Below are positions 1-13,097 of a stretch of 14,924 nt of DNA, piece after piece. Made by a program: the position numbers and the translations under genes. Below the pieces are notes generated by a model. It saw only the letters and a list, made by a program, of their open reading frames with translations. It had not been told where the DNA came from and made no database searches. The stretch comes from a virus. Numbering within the stretch: the stretch's first letter is position 1; every line of letters begins with the position of its first letter. Location: the UHGV virus genome UHGV-0149279, one strand, 5' to 3'.

Positions 1-273
1 CACCACTTCACCAGGCTTACCGGTGGCAATGGCATGGCCTGAGACATACAGGACTTTCCATGAAGCGAGGTCGCGCGACTTGCCAGCCCATTGCAATTGC
101 TTCGCTGTATCGCCACAGAGAGCGTGGAAGAGGTCGTTTTGGGCGAGAGTGCGGTCAGCCTCAGAAAACTTCACCACGAGCGGCAGAGCGTCGTTAACAG
201 GCAGCTTCCTGATGTAGTCGATGAGGTTATCGCGAACGCGTTCGTCGCGGAGGTAGAAAACAGGCTGTTTCAT
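1..273 (-). CDS. ninB: NinB/Orf-family recombination protein, 5' complete, 3' end beyond window edge
   Basis: Not in the ORF track because the frame runs off the window. Minus-strand ATG at 273-271 preceded by GGAGG; open frame to position 1. Translation MKQPVFYLRDERVRDNLIDYIRKLPVNDALPLVVKFSEADRTLAQNDLFHALCGDTAKQLQWAGKSRDLASWKVL... matches my recollection of lambda NinB (..RSLDQNRKLWACLGDVSRQVEWHGRWLDAESWK..). Confidence 0.65.
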   Translation of the reverse strand, partial: MKQPVFYLRDERVRDNLIDYIRKLPVNDALPLVVKFSEADRTLAQNDLFHALCGDTAKQLQWAGKSRDLASWKVLYVSGHAIATGKPGEVV

Positions 274-5379: not shown

Positions 5380-5925
5380 TCACATGACCCCCAACATCGA
5401 AGTGACCATCGTCATCAGCGGGCCTACCTGCTCCGGCATGAGGCGGAACAGCGACGCTATACCCTCGCTTACCTCTTTCAGCTTCTGATGCTCTGGAGCG
5501 TCCAGCAGCACAGCCTGTTTAGCTTCGGCACACTCTTTCATCGCAGAGGCGATCAGAGACATCGTGTCGTTCTGCGGCGCCAGGCGGTTGCGGTACTCCA
5601 GCGGAAGGACCGACATGATTGCTGGCGCCAGCTGGCGAATGTTGTTGGCGGCGTATTCGGTGTCGCCATCAATCCAGCGAAACACTTTCTGCATCTGGCG
5701 GTGCGAGTCAGTCGGGATATCCAGACCGGTTCCGCCGGACGCCCGCCACTCTTCAACAATCAGCGCTGCGACAAATTCACGGCTGCGGCAGTCAGCTGCC
5801 CAGGCCCGAACAGCTGCGCGGATCCCATCGATGTTTAACGCCGTGGAATCAGGTTCCCGGCGATTCTGGTAAATCATCGCCGCTGGCGAAAATTTGTTAC
5901 CTTGTTGATACGCAAGTGAATGCAT
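5380..5925 (-). CDS. YdaT-like protein (Rac-type, occupies the cII position)
   Basis: Immediately downstream of the cro-like gene. Central segment VFRWIDGDTEYAANNIRQLAPAIMSVLPLEYRNRL resembles my recollection of Rac YdaT; similarity is from memory only. RBS GGGAAAG. Confidence 0.45.
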   Translation of the reverse strand: MHSLAYQQGNKFSPAAMIYQNRREPDSTALNIDGIRAAVRAWAADCRSREFVAALIVEEWRASGGTGLDIPTDSHRQMQKVFRWIDGDTEYAANNIRQLAPAIMSVLPLEYRNRLAPQNDTMSLIASAMKECAEAKQAVLLDAPEHQKLKEVSEGIASLFRLMPEQVGPLMTMVTSMLGVM

Positions 5926-5955
5926 TGCTTTCCCTTTCGTGGTTAGGGCCGCCGG

Positions 5956-6201
5956 TCAGGCGGCTGTCGATTCATTTTTAATTCGGTCAGGGTTTGCAGC
6001 CTGTAGTAGCCACTCTGCCGTAAACTGCCCTTTTGATGCGTCAGCCAAAAGCTGTGAATAGTTGGTTTTCTCTGTGTACTCAGTGCGAGGCAACGCCGCG
6101 TTCTTTACCCACTTGTGAATAGCAACATTCGACAGACCACATAGGCGTGCCGCTGCGGTTTGTCCGCCTACAGCTTCGATTGCAAATTGCATTGGGTTCA
6201 T
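5956..6201 (-). CDS. Cro-like HTH regulator (YdaS family)
   Basis: 81 aa, divergent from cI; AVGGQTAAARLCGLSNVAIHKW fits the YdaS/Cro-type HTH pattern (A..GGQ.A.ARL.G.S...V..W). Confidence 0.65.
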   Translation of the reverse strand: MNPMQFAIEAVGGQTAAARLCGLSNVAIHKWVKNAALPRTEYTEKTNYSQLLADASKGQFTAEWLLQAANPDRIKNESTAA

Positions 6202-6285
6202 AGTGTTTTCCGTTAACTATATTAACTACAAGTTAAGGTTATATCTTAACTGACAGTTATGTCAACTCTAATTGATAATTAACAC
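6202..6285. promoter_or_regulatory. OR-like operator/promoter region between cro-like gene and cI
   Basis: Two palindromes TTAAC-N5-GTTAA: TTAACTACAAGTTAA (6222-6236) and TTAACTGACAGTTAT (6246-6260), plus extra TTAAC half-sites at 6213-6226. Candidate PR on minus strand: -35 TTGACA (reverse complement of 6260-6265), 16-bp spacer, -10 TATAAC (reverse complement of 6238-6243). Candidate PRM on plus strand: -35 CTGACA 6250-6255, -10 GATAAT 6274-6279, predicted start at or near the cI ATG (leaderless; no SD upstream of cI). Coordinates anchored to cro and cI start codons. Confidence 0.6.
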
Positions 6286-7053
6286 ATGGTTAAAAAAGAC
6301 GATTTAAAAGAAGAATTCTCGAAGAGACTTCGCGCTGCATTGCTTGATGCTGGCGTGGGTGGGCGTGGGCAGGCTGGCAGGATCAGGGAAGCTATGAAGT
6401 CCCAAGGGATTGCTGTATCTGAGCCCGGGATCTGGAAGTGGCTTAACGCATCAGCAATACCAGACCAAACCAATATCCTTGCACTTAGCCGCTGGCTTGG
6501 GGTTCGCCCTGAGTGGCTGGAATACGGAAGGAATGATCCTGAACCTGAACTGCACAGGGTATCATCCATCCCGCCTGAATCTGAGTGGGGAACTGTCGAC
6601 GCTTGGGACAAAAATACCCCCCTACCTGACGATGAGGTGGAAGTACCGTTTCTGAAGGATATCGAGTTTGCGTGTGGTGATGGGCGTGTTCATAGCGAAG
6701 ATCATAACGGCTTTAAACTGAGGTTCTCCAAGGCAACGCTCAGAAGGGTGGGTGCAAATAGTGATGGTTCTGGAGTGCTTTGCTTTCCCGCTTCTGGTGA
6801 CAGCATGGAGCCCGTTATTCCTGACGGCGCAACGGTAGCAGTCGATACAGGCAACAAGCGGATTATTGACGGCGAACTCTATGCTATTAACCAGGGCGAT
6901 TTAAAGCGCATAAAGCAGCTTTATCGAAAGCCTGGTGGGAAGCTATTAATACGAAGCATCAATCGCGATTATGACGATGAAGAGGCTGATGAGGCAGATG
7001 TCGAGATAATCGGTTTTGTGTTCTGGTACTCGGTATTGCGATATCGCCGATAA
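6286..7053 (+). CDS. cI: CI-type prophage repressor (N-terminal HTH, C-terminal S24 LexA-like peptidase domain)
   Basis: C-terminal GDSMEP (Ser nucleophile) and downstream DLKRIKQLY (Lys) as in LexA/CI autocleaving repressors; N-terminal HTH-like region; divergent from cro-like gene. Confidence 0.85.
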   Translation: MVKKDDLKEEFSKRLRAALLDAGVGGRGQAGRIREAMKSQGIAVSEPGIWKWLNASAIPDQTNILALSRWLGVRPEWLEYGRNDPEPELHRVSSIPPESEWGTVDAWDKNTPLPDDEVEVPFLKDIEFACGDGRVHSEDHNGFKLRFSKATLRRVGANSDGSGVLCFPASGDSMEPVIPDGATVAVDTGNKRIIDGELYAINQGDLKRIKQLYRKPGGKLLIRSINRDYDDEEADEADVEIIGFVFWYSVLRYRR

Positions 7054-7058
7054 TTTTA

Positions 7059-7171
7059 GTGGCCTGAAGAGACGTTTGGGTGATAAGAGAATATCTGATA
7101 GTAGGCGTGGTTACTTTGCTCTCGGTTGTTGCGATCGTGCTTATGGTGGCCTGATGAGACGTTTGGGTGAT
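7059..7171 (+). repeat. two copies of a 26-bp direct repeat GTGGCCTGA(A/T)GAGACGTTTGGGTGAT at 7059-7084 and 7146-7171
   Basis: 25/26 identical, 87 bp apart, immediately after the cI stop (7051-7053) and before the AT-rich cassette. Confidence 0.6.
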
Positions 7172-7319
7172 GGGCAAGGTGTTCTGGTCGGCGCATAGCT
7201 GGTGAAAAAATTATTTAATGCGGTGTATTGGCTGATTGTAACCCCATGTAACATCTTGCCGTCACCATTTCGGTGGTTAGATTTTTAATAAAAAAAACAA
7301 ATGTATAGCAAGGTTTTTT

Positions 7320-7799
7320 ATGGATAAAATTAATTACCCACCCCTGTTTGAGCCAGGGCTCCATGACATGGATGAAGCTGGATTAAAATCGTATTGTGTC
7401 GATTGCTTTCCTTCATCATCCAGGCGAGGCATGCTATACTGTAATTTTATACAGCTACTCGAATCTATTCGAGAATTATCTGCTCAATATGGCTGTTTTA
7501 CAGAAATATGGGTTGATGGTTCATACACCACGTCTAAACCAGAGCCTGATGATATTGATATTTTGTTGGTATGTGACTATAGCAATATAAACTCAATACC
7601 TGTCATGCTTCGGGGCCGCGTCGATAATTTGCTTGACCGAAACTACATCAAACAAAACTACAAAATTGATGTCCTACTACTCATGAAGAATTTAGATGAC
7701 CCTAACTATGATTATGAGTACTGGCGTAGCTACTGGCGCGGTTGGTTTGGTTTTGATCGCAGTGAAAACCCGAAAGGGTTAGTGAGGATTTTTTTATGA
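7320..7799 (+). CDS. minimal nucleotidyltransferase-fold (Pol-beta superfamily-like) protein, 159 aa
   Basis: FTEIWVDGSYTTSKPEPDDIDILLV fits hG[GS]-x9-D-x-D-h (compare generic MNT LFGSYARGEATEDSDIDLLV); third acidic residue in a hydrophobic strand at KIDVLLL. AT-rich (roughly 35-42% GC by eye versus above 50% in flanks). RBS AAGG. Family assignment is motif-based inference. Confidence 0.5.
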   Translation: MDKINYPPLFEPGLHDMDEAGLKSYCVDCFPSSSRRGMLYCNFIQLLESIRELSAQYGCFTEIWVDGSYTTSKPEPDDIDILLVCDYSNINSIPVMLRGRVDNLLDRNYIKQNYKIDVLLLMKNLDDPNYDYEYWRSYWRGWFGFDRSENPKGLVRIFL

Positions 7800-8728
7800 A
7801 TGATAAATCAATGTTTAAAAATTGCGATAAACGCATTGATTTCATTCAAAAAGAAGTCGATGCAATGAAGCAAAACAAAACCAGGTCCTTTGCTGACATG
7901 CTTCTTTATCGCTCCATGGATTCTCATCTGAGCGATTTGAAGGCCGAAAAATTAAAGCAAGATAGTCGGCACCCACTTATCGATTTTTTTGAGCTGCGGC
8001 TGAAAGGCTCTGAGGTTGACTTTGGCTCTATTCCTTTAGAGCTGCTTGGGGCTATTTCAACAAATCTTGCAGCGCTAATACAAAGAGCAACACACAAAAT
8101 TGCCTCAGGCAAGGACTCAAAAAAAGTTCCCTACGACGTGAAAAGCTCCTTAAACCTCAGGCTGGCTGATTTATCCCCTGGGTCTACAAAATTGGGCGTC
8201 ACCTTCTCTACAGGAATAGCAGAATTAGTAGAAACAGTACCCAGCAAGGCTGTAAAAGGCATATTCGATTTGTTGTTAAGCGATGACGACAACAACTTCA
8301 TGAATCACGTCGCTGAAATTGGATACAATTCCACTGTAAGCCTTAAGAGAATCGTAGAGGAATGCGATAAACACAACTTAACATTTGATGCAAGTTGGAC
8401 CGGTCCATTTAGTAATGGCACCAAGGTGGCAACTATTGACTCCAATAAAATTAAGTACTTGGTGAGTAGACTTACATCAACCATTTCATCCCCTCCCATT
8501 ACTGAAACGGTTACAGGCGAACTGGTCGTTCTATCCAAATATGGGAAGCTGGAGCTTGATGTTGGTGGTGAACATTTAAAGGCTTCCTATCCGATTGAAA
8601 TGCTAGATTTAATACAAAAAAAACACAAGGTCGGACAGATTGTTTCTCTTTTAGTGGAGACTACTGAGATTCACAATGATCGCATAGGTCTGTACCGTAA
8701 AAACCATCTTGTTAAATCGGTTCTTTAA
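7796..8728 (+). CDS. hypothetical protein, 310 aa, translationally coupled to the upstream NTase-like gene
   Basis: ATGA overlap with upstream stop; AT-rich; no motif I can assign (one R-x4-H match, RSMDSH, near the N-terminus is not sufficient to call HEPN). Confidence 0.6.
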   Translation: MNDKSMFKNCDKRIDFIQKEVDAMKQNKTRSFADMLLYRSMDSHLSDLKAEKLKQDSRHPLIDFFELRLKGSEVDFGSIPLELLGAISTNLAALIQRATHKIASGKDSKKVPYDVKSSLNLRLADLSPGSTKLGVTFSTGIAELVETVPSKAVKGIFDLLLSDDDNNFMNHVAEIGYNSTVSLKRIVEECDKHNLTFDASWTGPFSNGTKVATIDSNKIKYLVSRLTSTISSPPITETVTGELVVLSKYGKLELDVGGEHLKASYPIEMLDLIQKKHKVGQIVSLLVETTEIHNDRIGLYRKNHLVKSVL

Positions 8729-8735
8729 TATCTCA

Positions 8736-8759
8736 CCCGGCCACCGCGCCGGGTTTTTT
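8736..8759 (+). terminator. rho-independent terminator after the cassette
   Basis: CCCGGC-caccgc-GCCGGG stem-loop followed by TTTTTT, starting 8 nt after the stop at 8726-8728. Confidence 0.7.
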
Positions 8760-8843
8760 ATTGCCCACCCATAAAGCCATCCTCCATTCTGCCGATAACT
8801 ATCCAGCCTGAAGCTGATAACAATAACTATCGCAACACTACCT

Positions 8844-8868
8844 GCCCGCCCGTGCGGGCTTTTTTATT
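8844..8868 (+). terminator. second plus-strand rho-independent terminator
   Basis: GCCCGC-ccgt-GCGGGC followed by TTTTTTATT; overlaps the 3' end of the convergent minus-strand ORF 8864..9061. Confidence 0.55.
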
Positions 8869-9061
8869 GTCCTTTCCGCACTATCTCAGCTGCATCCCTG
8901 TTCACACCCTTACCTATCACGTTTCCCGTTTCCTTCCGGTACCGTTCCAGCTTGTCGATGATGTTTTGCTGGGTCATAGGTAAATCTGCCAGTGACAACT
9001 CCATGACCGCCCGCCCCATGGCGTGAACCATCATGTTCACTCTTTCTTCATTCAAGCCCAT
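8864..9061 (-). CDS. small hypothetical protein (65 aa), convergent with the cassette
   Basis: Strong RBS AAGGAG about 8 nt upstream of the ATG on the minus strand (reverse complement of 9062-9075); no recognised motif. Confidence 0.5.
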   Translation of the reverse strand: MGLNEERVNMMVHAMGRAVMELSLADLPMTQQNIIDKLERYRKETGNVIGKGVNRDAAEIVRKGQ

Positions 9062-9169
9062 TACCCACTCCTTTTTGATGTTTTTTTCAGCATATCACAT
9101 GCCAAGCAAATCTATAACCAAACCAAATTAACCAATAAATCATAACCTTAATAACCAACACAGAAATAA

Positions 9170-9212
9170 TTAACCATTGGTTATTGACCGAAAATAACCA
9201 TTAGTTAATAAT
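9170..9212 (+). promoter_or_regulatory. pL-like promoter with two OL-like operators
   Basis: -35 TTGACC 9184-9189, 17-bp spacer, -10 AATAAT 9207-9212. Palindromes with the same TTAAC-N5-GTTAA architecture as OR: TTAACCATTGGTTAT 9170-9184 and ATAACCATTAGTTAA 9194-9208. More TAACC repeats upstream (9110-9160). Confidence 0.5.
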
Positions 9213-9625
9213 CAACCCATCGAAACGAAACATCGACAGCTGAGCGAAGTTAGCCAGCGGCGGACAGCAAGTCGCCTGCTTTTTAACAACATGCAGATTT
9301 ACAGCGTCAATGACCTGTTAAGACCCCTACACGTAAACGTGCTGTATCACCGGGTGCGATCCGGTCGGTGAGAGAGTATCCCCGCGCGAGAGCGAGAACG
9401 GCGTGAGAACGGGCAACACTGGCAGGGAGTTGGCGCTGACCAATACAGGGAATGTTATGGGATGTGGTGAAGGGTTCATGGACGGGAATATGTCGCACGT
9501 AAAGCGGCGAGGCCCGAGGAGCTATTGCCGAAGATAAGTAGGCCGAATCGGGTCGAAATGGGTCTCCCACCTACCACATCGCCAAAGCATTTCTCCCGCA
9601 TCAGCGGGTAACGACAGAGGGTTTT

Positions 9626-11718: not shown

Positions 11719-11736
11719 TTTTTGAGGGATTTAACA

Positions 11737-12483
11737 ATGAGTACTGCACTTTCCACCATGGCCGGGAAACTGGCCGCACGCCTCGGCATGGATGCCGGTA
11801 CAGACCTGATGAATACGCTGAAGAATACAGCGTTCAAAGGTGGCAACGTCACGGACGAGCAATTTACAGCCCTGCTAATCGTCGCCAACCAGTACGGCCT
11901 GAACCCATGGACCAAAGAGATTTATGCCTTTCCAGATAAAGGCGGGATTGTCCCGGTCGTCGGCGTTGATGGATGGGCTCGCATTATCAACGAACATCCT
12001 CAGTTTGACGGCATGGAATTCTCTTACGACAAGGAGGAAGGCGCGTGTACCTGCAAGATTTACCGCAAAGACCGTAAGCACCCGACCATCGTCACCGAGT
12101 ACATGGGAGAGTGCAAACGCAACACTCAGCCATGGCAGTCCCACCCTACCCGCATGCTTCGCCACAAGACGCTGATCCAGTGCGCGCGTCTGGCCTTTGG
12201 TTTCGCTGGCATCTTCGACCAGGATGAGGCAGAGCGAGTAATTGAAGGAACAACGGCAGAGGTTCATGCGGGCCATGAATCAGATAGCCGCCGCCCGGAA
12301 CTGATCGCAAAAGGTGAGTCCGCCGCGCGCCTTGGAACCGTTAAGTATCAGGAGTTCTGGGTGGCGCTGAGCGCCGAAGAGAAACAGGTGATCGGCGCAG
12401 TTGAGAAACGACGCATGTATGACATGAGTCTTGCTGTCGACAACGCCGAACCTGTCAATGTCGCAGAGACGGAGGCTGAATGA
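11737..12483 (+). CDS. bet: Bet (Red-beta) single-strand annealing protein
   Basis: From ATG at 11737: MSTALSTMAGKLAARLGMD...LLIVANQYGLNPWTKEIYAFPDK..GIVPVVGVDGW..RMLRHKTLIQCARLAFGFAGI, near-identical in pattern to recalled lambda Bet. RBS GAGGGA. Confidence 0.85.
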   Translation: MSTALSTMAGKLAARLGMDAGTDLMNTLKNTAFKGGNVTDEQFTALLIVANQYGLNPWTKEIYAFPDKGGIVPVVGVDGWARIINEHPQFDGMEFSYDKEEGACTCKIYRKDRKHPTIVTEYMGECKRNTQPWQSHPTRMLRHKTLIQCARLAFGFAGIFDQDEAERVIEGTTAEVHAGHESDSRRPELIAKGESAARLGTVKYQEFWVALSAEEKQVIGAVEKRRMYDMSLAVDNAEPVNVAETEAE

Positions 12484-13097
12484 TAGAGCAACGCACCCCT
12501 GAATGGTTTGCTGCGCGCTGCGGCAAGGTCACAGCCAGTCGCCTGGCTGATGTCATGGCCCGGACTAAGTCGGGCTACTCCACCAGCCGCCAGAACTACA
12601 TGGCCGAGCTGATTTGCCAACGGCTGACCGGGAAGCTGGAGGAAGGGTTTTCGAATGCCGCGATGATGCGCGGCACTGAACTTGAGCCAGTGGCACGCGA
12701 AATGTACGCGCTGAATGAGTTCAATGCGGCAATCACTGAAGTTGGGCTCATCGATCACCCAACCATACCCGGATTCGCAGCCAGCCCGGACGGACTTGTC
12801 AACGACGACGGGCTTATCGAAATCAAATGCCCCAACACCTGGACCCATCTTGAAACGCTGAAAACTGGTGAGCCAAATCGCCAGTACATGCTGCAAATGC
12901 ATGCACAGATGATGTGCACCGGGCGGAAATGGTGTGATTTCGTTAGTTTCGATGATCGCCTGCCGCCTGACCTCGCCTATTTCAAGAAGCGGATTCATTT
13001 CGATGAAGAGCTGGCGCGCGAAATCGAATCTGAGGTTAAGAGCTTCCTTGCAGATCTGGAATCGGAAATTCAGAAAATCACAGAGCGTGCAGCATGA
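12480..13097 (+). CDS. exo: YqaJ/lambda-Exo-type 5'-3' exonuclease (PD-(D/E)xK)
   Basis: ATGA overlap with bet; DGLVNDDGLIEIKCP resembles lambda Exo DGLCSDGNGLELKCP catalytic region. Confidence 0.75.
   Translation: MIEQRTPEWFAARCGKVTASRLADVMARTKSGYSTSRQNYMAELICQRLTGKLEEGFSNAAMMRGTELEPVAREMYALNEFNAAITEVGLIDHPTIPGFAASPDGLVNDDGLIEIKCPNTWTHLETLKTGEPNRQYMLQMHAQMMCTGRKWCDFVSFDDRLPPDLAYFKKRIHFDEELAREIESEVKSFLADLESEIQKITERAA

What the first reader, a model, noticed from the sequence alone, without database searches (positions are those of the whole stretch)
7059..7171. Pair of near-identical 26-bp direct repeats between the cI stop and the cassette
GTGGCCTGA(A/T)GAGACGTTTGGGTGAT occurs twice (7059-7084, 7146-7171), 25/26 identical, at the boundary where GC composition shifts to the AT-rich cassette. 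Possibilities: recombination scar or boundary sequence of moron insertion, a protein-binding site pair regulating read-through from cI, or a structured RNA element. The track ORF spanning them (7016..7198) is probably an artefact of the repeat.
Basis: seen in the sequence. Interest (0 to 1): 0.4.

Follow-up and report, generated by a model that had tools for sequence, protein, structure and literature searches.

The report
Fossil repressor-gene tails marking cargo slot
The two 26-base repeats are dead, non-coding copies of the last eight codons of the phage lambda repressor gene; this short block marks the left edge of a slot where lambda-like prophages swap anti-phage defence cassettes, which is an ordinary kind of phage mosaic boundary resolved here in detail.

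Summary
GTGGCCTGA(A/T)GAGACGTTTGGGTGAT occurs at 7059-7084 and 7146-7171 (25/26 identical, 87 nt apart, none expected by chance).

It is the 3' end of lambda-type cI genes (Q)WPEETFG-stop, 25/26 identical to lambda itself. Here both copies lie behind the real stop of a phi80-type cI, so they are non-coding fossils. Phage phi80 carries the same pair.

Each copy is a mosaic joint:
- phi80 and the window diverge at 7170/7171.
- Phage mEpX1, whose live cI ends in the block, matches the window from 7146 onward.
- An E. coli prophage with an unrelated repressor matches from 7058 onward.

Across about 130 occurrences the block joins 11 upstream classes to 40-50 downstream classes, and breakpoints pile up at its edges. 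The cargo behind it includes RexAB, BstA, PD-Lambda-2 and, in the window, PDC-M63. In 96 of 97 cases the cargo ends in the same t_imm-type terminator block.

Best explanation: the repeats are the left homology flank of the cI-N cargo slot and are used for homologous cassette exchange. This step is inferred; the phage encodes RecT and a YqaJ-type exonuclease.

Nothing supports an RNA structure, an operator pair or any annotated ORF. A 24-codon hydrophobic ORF in the spacer cannot be excluded.

The parts
6343..7053 (+). Live repressor gene cI. The ORF is open from 6286; the RefSeq start corresponds to 6343. It has a phi80-type S24 C-terminal domain ending ...IIGFVFWYSVLRYRR-TAA, and an N-terminal DNA-binding domain different from phi80's.
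   Evidence: ORF list; Pfam Peptidase_S24, E 5e-19; RefSeq annotation of the identical E. coli G3/10 prophage; protein comparison.
7059..7084 (+). Repeat copy 1. It is a non-coding fossil of the lambda-type cI 3' end: TGG CCT GAA GAG ACG TTT GGG TGA = WPEETFG-stop (7060-7083). It is in the cI frame but lies behind TAA (7051-53) and TAG (7057-59). This is the left mosaic joint J1.
   Evidence: Translation. 25/26 identical to lambda 37226-37252. E. coli CB7286, with an unrelated repressor, matches the window from 7058 onward.
7085..7145 (+). 61-nt spacer of the 87-nt unit. It is nearly invariant wherever the unit occurs and its origin is unresolved. Together with the flanking repeat bases it contains a 24-codon hydrophobic ORF (7080-7154, GTG overlapping the TGA of copy 1): (M)IREYLIVGVVTLLSVVAIVLMVA.
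   Evidence: 23 units compared. Alone, the spacer matches only phi80 in the phage collection. ORF translation. No family hit. Similarity to the 3' end of one class of lambda-like cI genes (class U6) is weak, p about 0.02.
7146..7171 (+). Repeat copy 2. It is a second fossil of the same cI tail: WPDETFG-stop (7147-7170). This is joint J2: phi80 diverges from the window at 7170/7171, and mEpX1, lambda, 434, HK544, SfI and VT1-Sakai begin to match at 7146.
   Evidence: Translation; megablast coordinates; side-by-side sequences.
7173..7205 (+). Third fossil: GKVFWSAHSW-stop, the tail of a phi80-like ('FW-tail') repressor gene. The same block follows the stop codon of lambda cI. This is joint J3 (about 7202), where lambda and mEpX1/window diverge and the AT-rich cargo begins.
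   Evidence: Translation. 26/33 nt identical to the 3' end of intact repressor genes ending IIGRVFWSSHSW-stop (L029, L060); no other 33-mer in the window exceeds 20/33. HK639 has the block without the WPEETFG block. Secondary breakpoint cluster at +55..57.
7206..7319 (+). AT-rich leader of the cassette, shared with mEpX1. It includes a weak terminator-like hairpin at 7258-7277.
7320..8728 (+). Cargo: a two-gene candidate defence cassette, PDC-M63A (DUF6932, 7320-7799) and PDC-M63B (7796-8728).
   Evidence: Pfam DUF6932, E 2e-24. PADLOC PDC-M63A E 4e-41 and PDC-M63B E 8e-45. Same genes as mEpX1 gp42/gp41.
8735..8766 (+). Right flank of the slot: the conserved t_imm-type intrinsic terminator block ACCCGGCCACCGCGCCGGGTTTTTTATTGCCC. 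Identity to mEpX1 ends at about 8772.
   Evidence: Terminator scan. The same block ends the cargo in phi80, mEpX1 and lambda. It is present 529-2112 nt downstream of the motif in 96/97 occurrences and upstream in 0/108.
8841..8872 (+). Second terminator, 106 nt after the first. A 23-nt stretch is 83% identical to the first. phi80-type sequence (OL/PL region) resumes at 8871.
   Evidence: (repeat family D4).

Best explanation
The two 26-mers are non-coding relics of the last eight codons plus stop (QWPEETFG-TGA) of lambda-type cI repressor genes. They sit behind the stop codon of a live phi80-type cI.

Together with a third relic (GKVFWSAHSW-stop, 7173-7205) they form the left flank of the cI-to-N cargo slot of lambdoid prophages. 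The right flank is a conserved t_imm-type terminator (8735-8766).

The same 24-26-nt block sits at this position in many otherwise unrelated lambdoid phages, either as the live end of cI or as a fossil. It therefore offers a patch of perfect homology in which phage single-strand-annealing recombinases (Red-beta, RecT) or RecA can cross over. A second crossover in the terminator block then replaces the whole cassette.

In this window the phi80-type immunity module, already carrying the pair, was joined at copy 2 to an mEpX1-type PDC-M63 cassette.

Shown: the identity of the repeats, their non-coding state, and the coincidence of both copies and of the block in general with mosaic breakpoints. 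Also shown: the two-block bracket around the cargo and the defence-rich cargo.

Inferred: that exchange proceeds by homologous recombination inside the block. Also inferred: that the pair has no physiological role in the lysogen, and how the tandem 87-nt unit first arose. The unit probably arose in a lambda-like phage where copy 1 is still the live cI end.
For: Identity:
- Copy 1 is 25/26 and copy 2 is 24/26 identical to the lambda cI end. mEpX1 cI ends in the same block.
- Translations are WPEETFG* and WPDETFG*, behind the cI stops.

Joints in the window:
- phi80 matches 7040-7170 at 98.5% and then diverges.
- mEpX1 matches from 7146 to 7325 and beyond at 98%.
- Lambda, 434 and others match 7146-7201.
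- E. coli CB7286, with a different repressor, matches from 7058.

General pattern:
- Of 123 IMG/VR occurrences, 84 end a long cI ORF and 39 are vestigial.
- The block joins 11 upstream to 40 downstream sequence classes, or 50 classes in 147 occurrences.
- Of 691 pairs with the same upstream but unrelated downstream sequence, 674 break at +18..+29 from TGG.
- Of 43 converse pairs, 38 break at -8..-1.
- In 80 lambda-type cI genes found without reference to the motif, 71 carry the exact 20-mer. The Gly wobble and the stop vary with the 19 downstream classes.

The 87-nt unit:
- 23 instances, always the same unit, in at least 6 upstream and at least 9 downstream contexts.
- In five loci copy 1 is the live cI end.

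Right flank: the t_imm-type block follows in 96/97 occurrences and never lies upstream.

Cargo: RexA/B, BstA, PD-Lambda-2, PDC-M63 and others.

Mechanistic plausibility:
- Block length is 24-26 nt. The published minimal pairing segment is 23-27 bp for Red-beta and 31-34 bp for RecA (PMC3945230).
- The window encodes RecT and a YqaJ-type exonuclease.
- The cI-N region is described as highly mosaic and a moron site (PMC7067206 citing Degnan 2007).
Against: - No recombination was observed; the mechanism is inferred from breakpoint positions.
- For live cI genes, a joint at the stop codon would also be expected from illegitimate recombination followed by selection for an intact repressor.
- The motif-anchored samples required an exact 20-mer, so shorter or decayed fossils were not counted. 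Conservation inside the block is partly by construction in those samples.
- In an unbiased, diverse sample of phi80-type repressors only 4 of 80 carry the block downstream. It is therefore a feature of the coliphage-lambda exchange pool, not a general requirement.
- A tandem pair is not what a crossover inside the block produces. At least one non-homologous joint is needed to explain the 87-nt unit.
- The near-invariance of the 61-nt spacer is unexplained.
Confidence: 0.75

Rival explanations
1. Pure neutral scars. The copies are leftovers of illegitimate (non-homologous) joins that replaced earlier lambda-type cI genes. They play no part in later exchanges and persist only because too little time has passed for them to decay.
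For: - A tandem pair and stacked fossils (WPEETFG x2 plus GKVFWSAHSW) need at least some non-homologous joins.
- Left joints differ in detail (TAG|TGG, TTTTAG|, CCAG|, CCAGCCAG|, CGG|), which implies several independent events.
- Copy 2 in phi80 is visibly decaying (GTTTTGGTGAA).
- Only 4 of 80 diverse phi80-type repressors carry the block.
Against: - The same fossil-bearing unit is found with at least 6 different upstream genes and at least 9 different cargoes. Breakpoints lie at the block edges on both sides. That pattern requires repeated exchange at exactly this block.
- Fossils are mostly perfect 20-24-mers next to unrelated sequence.
- The cargo is bracketed on the other side by a second conserved block in 96/97 cases.
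Confidence: 0.13
2. The 87-nt unit is a small gene. A 24-residue hydrophobic peptide (7080-7154) would be translated by coupling to the preceding reading frame, its GTG overlapping the TGA. The repeats would be conserved because they provide its start and its stop.
For: - The ORF is intact in 22 of 23 units.
- The three single-base polymorphisms inside it fall on third codon positions: two are synonymous and one is I/M.
- In five phages copy 1 is the live cI end, so GTGA coupling is possible.
- One cargo class does start a real 162-aa gene at the same overlap.
- The peptide looks like a single transmembrane helix.
Against: - The unit is almost invariant, so three polymorphisms give little power (chance about 0.04).
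- One unit (L177) has lost the start codon and carries four further changes.
- There is no good Shine-Dalgarno sequence.
- In the window and in phi80 the upstream frame is closed by two stops before copy 1, so coupling cannot operate.
- Short ORFs of 19-39 codons arise by chance at this position in other cargo classes.
- No significant family match (none in Pfam; in NCBIfam only Psb34 at E 0.54, 10 bits against a cut-off of 45) and no annotation in 64 E. coli genomes or in phi80.
Confidence: 0.07
3. A cis-regulatory element of the cI operon: a pair of protein-binding sites, or an RNA structure controlling read-through from cI into the cassette.
For: The position, between cI and a co-oriented cassette, is where such control could act. 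A weak terminator-like hairpin lies further downstream at 7258-7277.
Against: - Folding energy is no better than shuffled sequence on either strand (z -0.23 and -0.20).
- There is no Rfam match, even at E up to 1, overlapping the repeats.
- No terminator-like site lies within 7054-7171.
- The 26-mer has no dyad symmetry and does not resemble this phage's operators.
- The same sequence is simply coding in most phages.
- Closely related RYRR-type cI genes lack the unit altogether (L264, L272).
Confidence: 0.03

Closest known systems
3' end of phage lambda cI and the cI-rexA junction (NC_001416 about 37196-37252)
   Same: Copy 1 is 25/26 and copy 2 is 24/26 identical to the last eight codons plus stop of lambda cI. 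The next 31 nt of lambda (GKVFWSAHS-stop block) also match 7172-7201. The block has the same orientation and the same position relative to the cargo (rexAB there, PDC-M63 here) and to a t_imm-type terminator.
   Different: In lambda the block is translated as the C-terminus of the repressor. Here both copies lie behind stop codons of an unrelated-tailed cI and are non-coding, and there are two of them.
phi80 cI-gene 40A intergenic region (NC_021190 34474-34604; X13065)
   Same: The same arrangement: cI ending RYRR-stop, copy 1, the same spacer (one base different) and copy 2. Identity is 98.5% over 7040-7170.
   Different: phi80 copy 2 is more decayed (GTTTTGGTGAA) and is followed by gene 40A instead of the FW-tail fossil and the PDC-M63 cassette. 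The window's cI also has a different N-terminal DNA-binding domain. The region is unannotated in the phi80 records.
Mosaic boundary or 'linker' sequences of lambdoid phages, and homologous-recombination traces at mosaic edges. Modular-evolution model from my own knowledge: Susskind and Botstein 1978; Juhala et al. 2000; Clark et al. 2001. From the papers read here: De Paepe et al. 2014, PMC3945230.
   Same: A short block shared by otherwise unrelated neighbours at a gene boundary. Breakpoints cluster at its edges. Its length is at the Red-beta minimal pairing segment.
   Different: Here the block can be named exactly (a repressor tail). It persists as a fossil behind heterologous repressors and is paired with a defined second block (a terminator) across a 0.5-2.1 kb cargo.
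Promoter-early stem-loop (PeSL) cassettes of T4-type phages (Arbiol et al. 2010, PMC2839356; seen only as a title and abstract)
   Same: Short repeated motifs flank small accessory-gene cassettes and are proposed to mediate their shuffling by homologous recombination.
   Different: PeSLs are functional promoter plus stem-loop units repeated many times in one genome. The block here has no detectable regulatory function and occurs once or twice per genome.

Membership tests
Lambda-type cI terminal coding block (QWPEETFG-stop) | Near-identity in nucleotide sequence to the last 8 codons plus stop of lambda cI | tested here: met
   25/26 (copy 1) and 24/26 (copy 2) against lambda and mEpX1.
Lambda-type cI terminal coding block (QWPEETFG-stop) | Lies in frame at the end of a long S24-repressor reading frame, so that it is translated | tested here: not met
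   Copy 1 has 0 open codons upstream (TAA 7051, TAG 7057). Copy 2 has 14. Both are fossils, not live coding sequence.
Mosaic joint / homology patch for module exchange | The same block is flanked by unrelated sequences in different genomes, on both sides | tested here: met
   11 upstream and 40-50 downstream classes. For the window itself: phi80, mEpX1, lambda and CB7286.
Mosaic joint / homology patch for module exchange | Breakpoints concentrate at the edges of the block | tested here: met
   674/691 right breakpoints at +18..+29 and 38/43 left breakpoints at -8..-1. Caveat: the samples were anchored on an exact 20-mer.
Mosaic joint / homology patch for module exchange | Length of perfect identity reaches the minimal efficient pairing segment of the recombinase | tested here: met
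   The block is 24-26 nt. The published value for Red-beta is 23-27 bp and for RecA 31-34 bp (PMC3945230). RecT and a YqaJ-type exonuclease are encoded at 11722-13097.
Mosaic joint / homology patch for module exchange | A second shared block on the far side of the exchanged segment, to allow a double crossover | tested here: met
   A t_imm-type terminator block lies 529-2112 nt downstream in 96/97 occurrences and upstream in 0/108.
Mosaic joint / homology patch for module exchange | Recombination shown to occur within the block | not testable with these tools
   Needs genetic crosses with junction sequencing.
Structured RNA element (any Rfam family or a stable fold) | Match to a covariance model, or folding energy beyond shuffled controls | tested here: not met
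   No Rfam hit at gathering score in the window and none overlapping the repeats at E up to 1. Fold z-scores are -0.23 and -0.20.
Repressor operator pair | Dyad symmetry and similarity to the OR/OL operators of the same phage | tested here: not met
   The operators here are AT-rich TTAACC..GGTTAA palindromes at about 6205-6290 and 9100-9215. The 26-mer shares nothing with them and has no dyad.
Small membrane-protein gene | Intact start and stop, a ribosome-binding site, a codon-aware substitution pattern, and homologues | tested here: inconclusive
   The ORF is intact in 22/23 units and three polymorphisms fall at third positions. But there is almost no variation, no clear SD, one copy has lost its start, and there are no family hits.
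Intrinsic terminator | G+C-rich hairpin followed by a T-run within the repeats | tested here: not met
   The scan finds none in 7054-7171. The nearest is a weak one at 7258-7277.

The most novel reading that the evidence does not exclude
The cI-tail block and its partner, the t_imm terminator block, may not be passive relics. They could be a maintained pair of 'sockets' kept even when non-coding, because lineages that carry them can plug in any defence cassette circulating in the lambdoid pool through RecT/Red-beta recombination at minimal-length homology. That would be a homologous-recombination analogue of an integron cassette site. A lesser variant is that the 87-nt unit also encodes a 24-residue membrane peptide coupled to cI.
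Probability: 0.25. Interest if true: 0.55.

Novelty: new member of a known kind. Interest (0 to 1): 0.3.

Why it matters
The result explains an unannotated repeat that sits in phi80, and therefore in DH5-alpha, DH10B and TOP10 laboratory strains, and in wild E. coli prophages.

It also gives exact sequence coordinates to a textbook idea, that lambdoid phages exchange modules at short shared boundaries. The slot between cI and N is bracketed by two short conserved blocks. The left block is about 24 nt and is the repressor tail, live or fossil. The right block is about 21-30 nt and is the t_imm terminator.

Between the blocks lie 0.5-2.1 kb cargoes rich in known and candidate anti-phage systems (RexAB, BstA, PD-Lambda-2, PDC-M63 and others).

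In practice the two blocks can serve as anchors to harvest defence cassettes from enterobacterial prophages. They also make a clean substrate for testing how much homology phage recombinases need in nature. The finding does not reveal a new kind of element.

Tried and rejected
- **Rfam.** Scans of the whole window at gathering score and of 6900-7400 at E up to 1 found nothing relevant.
- **RNA folding** of 7040-7215 on both strands was no better than shuffles.
- **Operator comparison.** The repeats do not resemble the OR/OL operators.
- **Chi site.** The only GCTGGTGG in the window is at 12580.
- **Spacer as a decayed duplication of a cI 3' end.** The best local alignment is a 10-mer, GGTTGTTGCG, with p about 0.015-0.025 by shuffling. 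This is inconclusive.
- **Spacer as part of a longer gene elsewhere.** Alone it matches only phi80 in the phage collection.
- **ORFs across the repeats.** Family searches with the four ORFs gave no significant hit; the only two listed (NCBIfam Psb34, E 0.54; TraF subfamily, E 0.038) are far below their cut-offs.
- **Double motif in one genome per species (GTDB).** No hits.
- **Single motif in the same collection.** It hit enterobacterial prophages, plus many tiny low-coverage contigs of unrelated taxa that look like lambda DNA contamination.
- **IS, MITE or att-site readings.** Rejected: there are no inverted ends, the spacer is only 61 nt, and no recombinase gene is consistently adjacent.
- **Literature.** No paper in the held library contains 'WPEETFG'. 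Degnan et al. 2007 and Rotman et al. 2012, the two papers most likely to mention this junction, are not held. I therefore cannot exclude that the block has been described.
- **Calls that failed.** Several literature queries failed on term syntax.

Full report
**1. The observation**

The 26-mer GTGGCCTGA(A/T)GAGACGTTTGGGTGAT is present at 7059-7084 and 7146-7171, with 25 of 26 bases identical. The similarity extends to 31 nt, and the copies start 87 nt apart. A search allowing three mismatches finds only these two copies in the 14.9-kb window. Two hundred dinucleotide-preserving shuffles gave none.

The repeats lie between the stop of an S24-family repressor gene and a two-gene cassette that starts at 7320. 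The repressor's stop is TAA at 7051-7053 (Pfam), and the RefSeq CDS of the identical E. coli G3/10 prophage ends at the same base. G+C falls from about 0.5 to 0.36-0.38. The fall is near 7200, roughly 30 nt beyond copy 2.

**2. What the 26-mer is**

Megablast of 7040-7325 against phage genomes split the region into pieces with different relatives:
- phi80 matches 7040-7170 at 98.5%.
- mEpX1 matches 7146-7325 at 98.3%.
- Lambda, 434, SfI, HK544 and VT1-Sakai match only 7146-7201.

In lambda and mEpX1 the matching bases are the last eight codons and the stop of cI: CAG TGG CCT GAA GAG ACG TTT GGC TGA, which encodes QWPEETFG-stop. Copy 1 differs from lambda at one base, the glycine wobble. Copy 2 differs at two.

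In the window both copies read WPEETFG-stop and WPDETFG-stop in the frame of cI. Copy 1 is preceded by TAA and TAG. Copy 2 is preceded by three stops in the spacer. They are therefore non-coding fossils of the tail of a lambda-type repressor gene, lying behind a live repressor gene with a different tail (...IIGFVFWYSVLRYRR).

**3. The pair is older than this cassette, and each copy is a joint**

phi80 has the same cI end, the same copy 1, the same spacer with one base changed, and a slightly more decayed copy 2. It then diverges from the window at 7170/7171 into its gene 40A.

mEpX1 has a single, live block at the end of its own cI. From there on it is co-linear with the window through the cassette.

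In E. coli CB7286 a quite different repressor (...EAREWLKSS-stop) is followed by copy 1, the spacer, copy 2 and the same cassette. Identity to the window begins at 7058.

So sequence changes partner at the left edge of copy 1 and at the right edge of copy 2.

I searched IMG/VR for two blocks spaced 40-70 nt apart. All 19 loci found carry this same 87-nt unit. With the window, its identical G3/10 copy (L125), phi80 and CB7286 the table has 23 rows (22 independent instances), in at least six upstream and nine downstream contexts. In five of them (L102, L172, L174, L175, L181) copy 1 is the real end of an intact lambda-like cI. That is probably the setting in which the unit arose.

The complete junction seen in the window occurs in only 3 of 5426 complete E. 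coli genomes. The unit occurs in 64 genomes, mostly laboratory strains with the phi80dlacZ remnant, and it is never annotated.

**4. The block as a general mosaic joint**

Of these, 84 end an open frame of 121-252 codons and 39 have an in-frame stop within 36 codons.

I clustered the flanks at 80% identity. This gave 11 upstream classes and 40 downstream classes, or 50 downstream classes in a larger set of 147 occurrences.

An anchored listing shows identity collapsing at the glycine wobble and the stop codon. The breakpoint counts agree:
- Of 691 sequence pairs with the same upstream but unrelated downstream sequence, 674 lose identity between +18 and +29 from the first T of TGG. A small second cluster lies at +55..57.
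- Of 43 pairs with the same downstream but unrelated upstream sequence, 38 lose identity between -8 and -1.

These samples were anchored on the motif, so I drew an independent one. Eighty loci were found through peptide patterns elsewhere in the lambda-type C-terminal domain. Of these, 71 have the exact 20-mer and 9 carry one synonymous change. The glycine wobble and the stop codon vary together with 19 different downstream classes.

**5. A third fossil and the right flank**

The 33 nt after copy 2 (7173-7205) translate to GKVFWSAHSW-stop. They are 26/33 identical to the 3' end of intact repressor genes that end IIGRVFWSSHSW-stop (L029, L060). No other 33-mer in the window exceeds 20/33.

The same block follows the stop codon of lambda cI. 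In HK639 it follows an unrelated cI without the WPEETFG block. The window thus carries a stack: a live FW-tail cI, a lambda-tail fossil, the spacer, a second lambda-tail fossil, an FW-tail fossil, and then the cargo.

At the other end of the cargo, the window, phi80, mEpX1 and lambda all finish with the same terminator, despite having three different cargoes between them (the window and mEpX1 share PDC-M63; phi80 has gene 40A, lambda rexAB). The terminator is ACCCGGCC(A/T)C(C/A)GCGCCGGGTTTT, at the position of lambda t_imm, and the phages diverge again after it.

Among motif occurrences with at least 3.5 kb of downstream sequence, 96 of 97 have this block (up to 3 mismatches) 529-2112 nt downstream. 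None of 108 has it upstream.

In the window, identity to mEpX1 ends near 8772. phi80-type sequence resumes at 8871, after a second, similar terminator. Both flanks of the slot are therefore doubled here.

**6. What the cargo is**

The window's cassette matches PADLOC candidate system PDC-M63 (A: 7320-7799, also Pfam DUF6932; B: 7796-8728).

I scanned the first ORFs of the downstream classes against PADLOC and Pfam. Hits were RexA and RexB, BstA (three classes), PD-Lambda-2 A and B, PD-T4-9_C, PDC-M24B, PDC-S13, PDC-S43, PDC-M04A, PDC-S05 and a HigB/MqsA toxin-antitoxin pair.

This agrees with published statements that the repressor-to-N region of lambdoid prophages is highly mosaic and a common site of accessory loci (PMC7067206 citing Degnan et al. 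2007). It also agrees with the report that accessory genes there are co-transcribed with the repressor from PRM (PMC3564112).

**7. How it most likely works**

The shown facts are these: a short block of perfect identity at the left edge of the slot; a second block at the right edge; unrelated cargo between them; and breakpoints at the block edges.

The inference is that cassettes are exchanged by homologous recombination with one crossover in each block. The left block is 24-26 nt. De Paepe et al. report a minimal efficient pairing segment of 23-27 bp for Red-beta and 31-34 bp for RecA, and they show that phage Rad52-like recombinases, including phi80 RecT, drive mosaic formation (PMC3945230). 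The window's phage encodes RecT (11722-12483) and a YqaJ-type exonuclease (12480-13097).

A crossover inside a block does not duplicate it. The tandem unit and the stacked fossils therefore also require occasional non-homologous joins. Conversely, recombination between the two direct copies would collapse the unit to one block. That is consistent with the same cassette occurring behind a single block in mEpX1, L060 and L118.

I found no sign that the pair does anything in the lysogen. In an unbiased, diverse sample of 80 phi80-type repressor genes, only four have the block within 160 nt downstream. Two cI genes with the same RYRR tail lack the unit altogether.

**8. Rivals**

- *Neutral scar with no role in later exchange.* This fits the decay of phi80 copy 2 and the variety of left joints. 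It does not fit the repeated reassortment on both sides of an otherwise constant unit.
- *Small gene.* A 24-codon hydrophobic ORF (7080-7154) starts at a GTG overlapping the TGA of copy 1 and stops in copy 2. It is intact in 22 of 23 units, and the three single-base polymorphisms fall on third codon positions. However, the unit is almost invariant, one copy has lost the start, there is no clear ribosome-binding site, comparable short ORFs arise by chance in other cargo classes, and there is no significant family match. I keep it at about 7%.
- *Operator pair or RNA element.* This is not supported.

**9. Comparison with what is known, and novelty**

The closest things are, literally, the end of lambda cI and the unannotated cI-40A spacer of phi80. 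The kind of feature is a mosaic boundary in the sense of the modular theory of lambdoid phage evolution, and of the homologous-recombination traces of De Paepe et al.

The following details may be new:
- The exact identity of the block.
- Its survival as a fossil behind heterologous repressors.
- The FW-tail fossil behind lambda cI itself.
- The near-universal pairing with the t_imm block.

I could not read the two papers most likely to have noted this, and no held paper contains the peptide string. I therefore file it as a new member of a known kind, with modest interest.

Noticed in passing
window 7173-7205; lambda NC_001416 about 37196-37226 (L003 1527-1557): The 31-33 nt directly after the stop codon of lambda cI (and after copy 2 here) read GKVFWSAHS(W)-stop. 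They are 26/33 identical to the 3' end of intact phi80-like repressor genes (IIGRVFWSSHSW-stop). Lambda's own cI-rexA spacer therefore seems to begin with a fossil of another repressor's tail.
   Followed up: partly
window 8735-8766 and 8841-8872: The right end of the cassette carries two similar intrinsic terminators 106 nt apart. The first is the t_imm-type block, which closes the cargo slot in 96/97 motif-bearing loci. Both flanks of the slot are thus doubled in this prophage.
   Followed up: partly
window 6286-7053 (joint roughly 6560-6580): The repressor itself is a chimera. Its C-terminal domain, from about IPPESEWGTVDAW onward, is nearly identical to phi80 cI, but the N-terminal DNA-binding domain is unrelated to phi80's. 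That N-terminal domain recurs in L063 and L113 joined to a different C-terminal tail, which implies a mosaic joint inside cI at the domain linker and a different immunity.
   Followed up: partly
window 7320-8728: The cassette is a match to PADLOC candidate defence system PDC-M63 (DUF6932 protein plus a 310-aa partner with no Pfam domain). Its function is untested as far as these libraries show.
   Followed up: partly
window 7080-7154: A 24-codon ORF encodes a hydrophobic peptide, (M)IREYLIVGVVTLLSVVAIVLMVA. It starts at a GTG overlapping the TGA of copy 1 and ends at a TGA inside copy 2. The three polymorphisms seen among 23 units fall on third codon positions.
   Followed up: partly
window 6205-6290 and 9100-9215: AT-rich palindromes of the type TTAACC(N)GGTTAA are repeated in the cro-cI intergenic region and upstream of the N-like gene. 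They are probably the OR and OL operators of this immunity type. A promoter-like site lies at 9184-9212.
   Followed up: no
window 5380-6201 (minus strand): The cro and cII positions are occupied by YdaS-like (5956-6201) and YdaT-like (5380-5925) proteins, as in Rac-type and CP-933P-type prophages.
   Followed up: no
loci L019, L027, L030, L037, L087, L102, L173, L180 (directly after the motif): Several otherwise different downstream classes start with the same strong terminator, GGTCGCAGAGATGCGGCCTTTTTT, within 5-30 nt of the block. It may be a second small portable element at this boundary.
   Followed up: no
loci L130-L169 (genome-contig hits): The motif turned up on very short or low-coverage contigs of unrelated taxa (Limosilactobacillus, Desulfovibrio, Helicobacter, Capnocytophaga, Kitasatospora and others), some on contigs of about 48.4-48.5 kb. 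These look like lambda DNA contamination of assemblies, not genuine prophages.
   Followed up: no
loci L072, L096, L254: In one cargo class a 162-aa gene starts at an ATG/GTG that overlaps the cI stop codon (ATGA/GTGA). Translational coupling of cargo to cI does therefore occur at exactly this position in some phages.
   Followed up: no
window 11722-13097: A RecT-family annealase and a YqaJ-type exonuclease are encoded downstream. This is the kind of phage recombination system reported to recombine short or diverged homologies.
   Followed up: no
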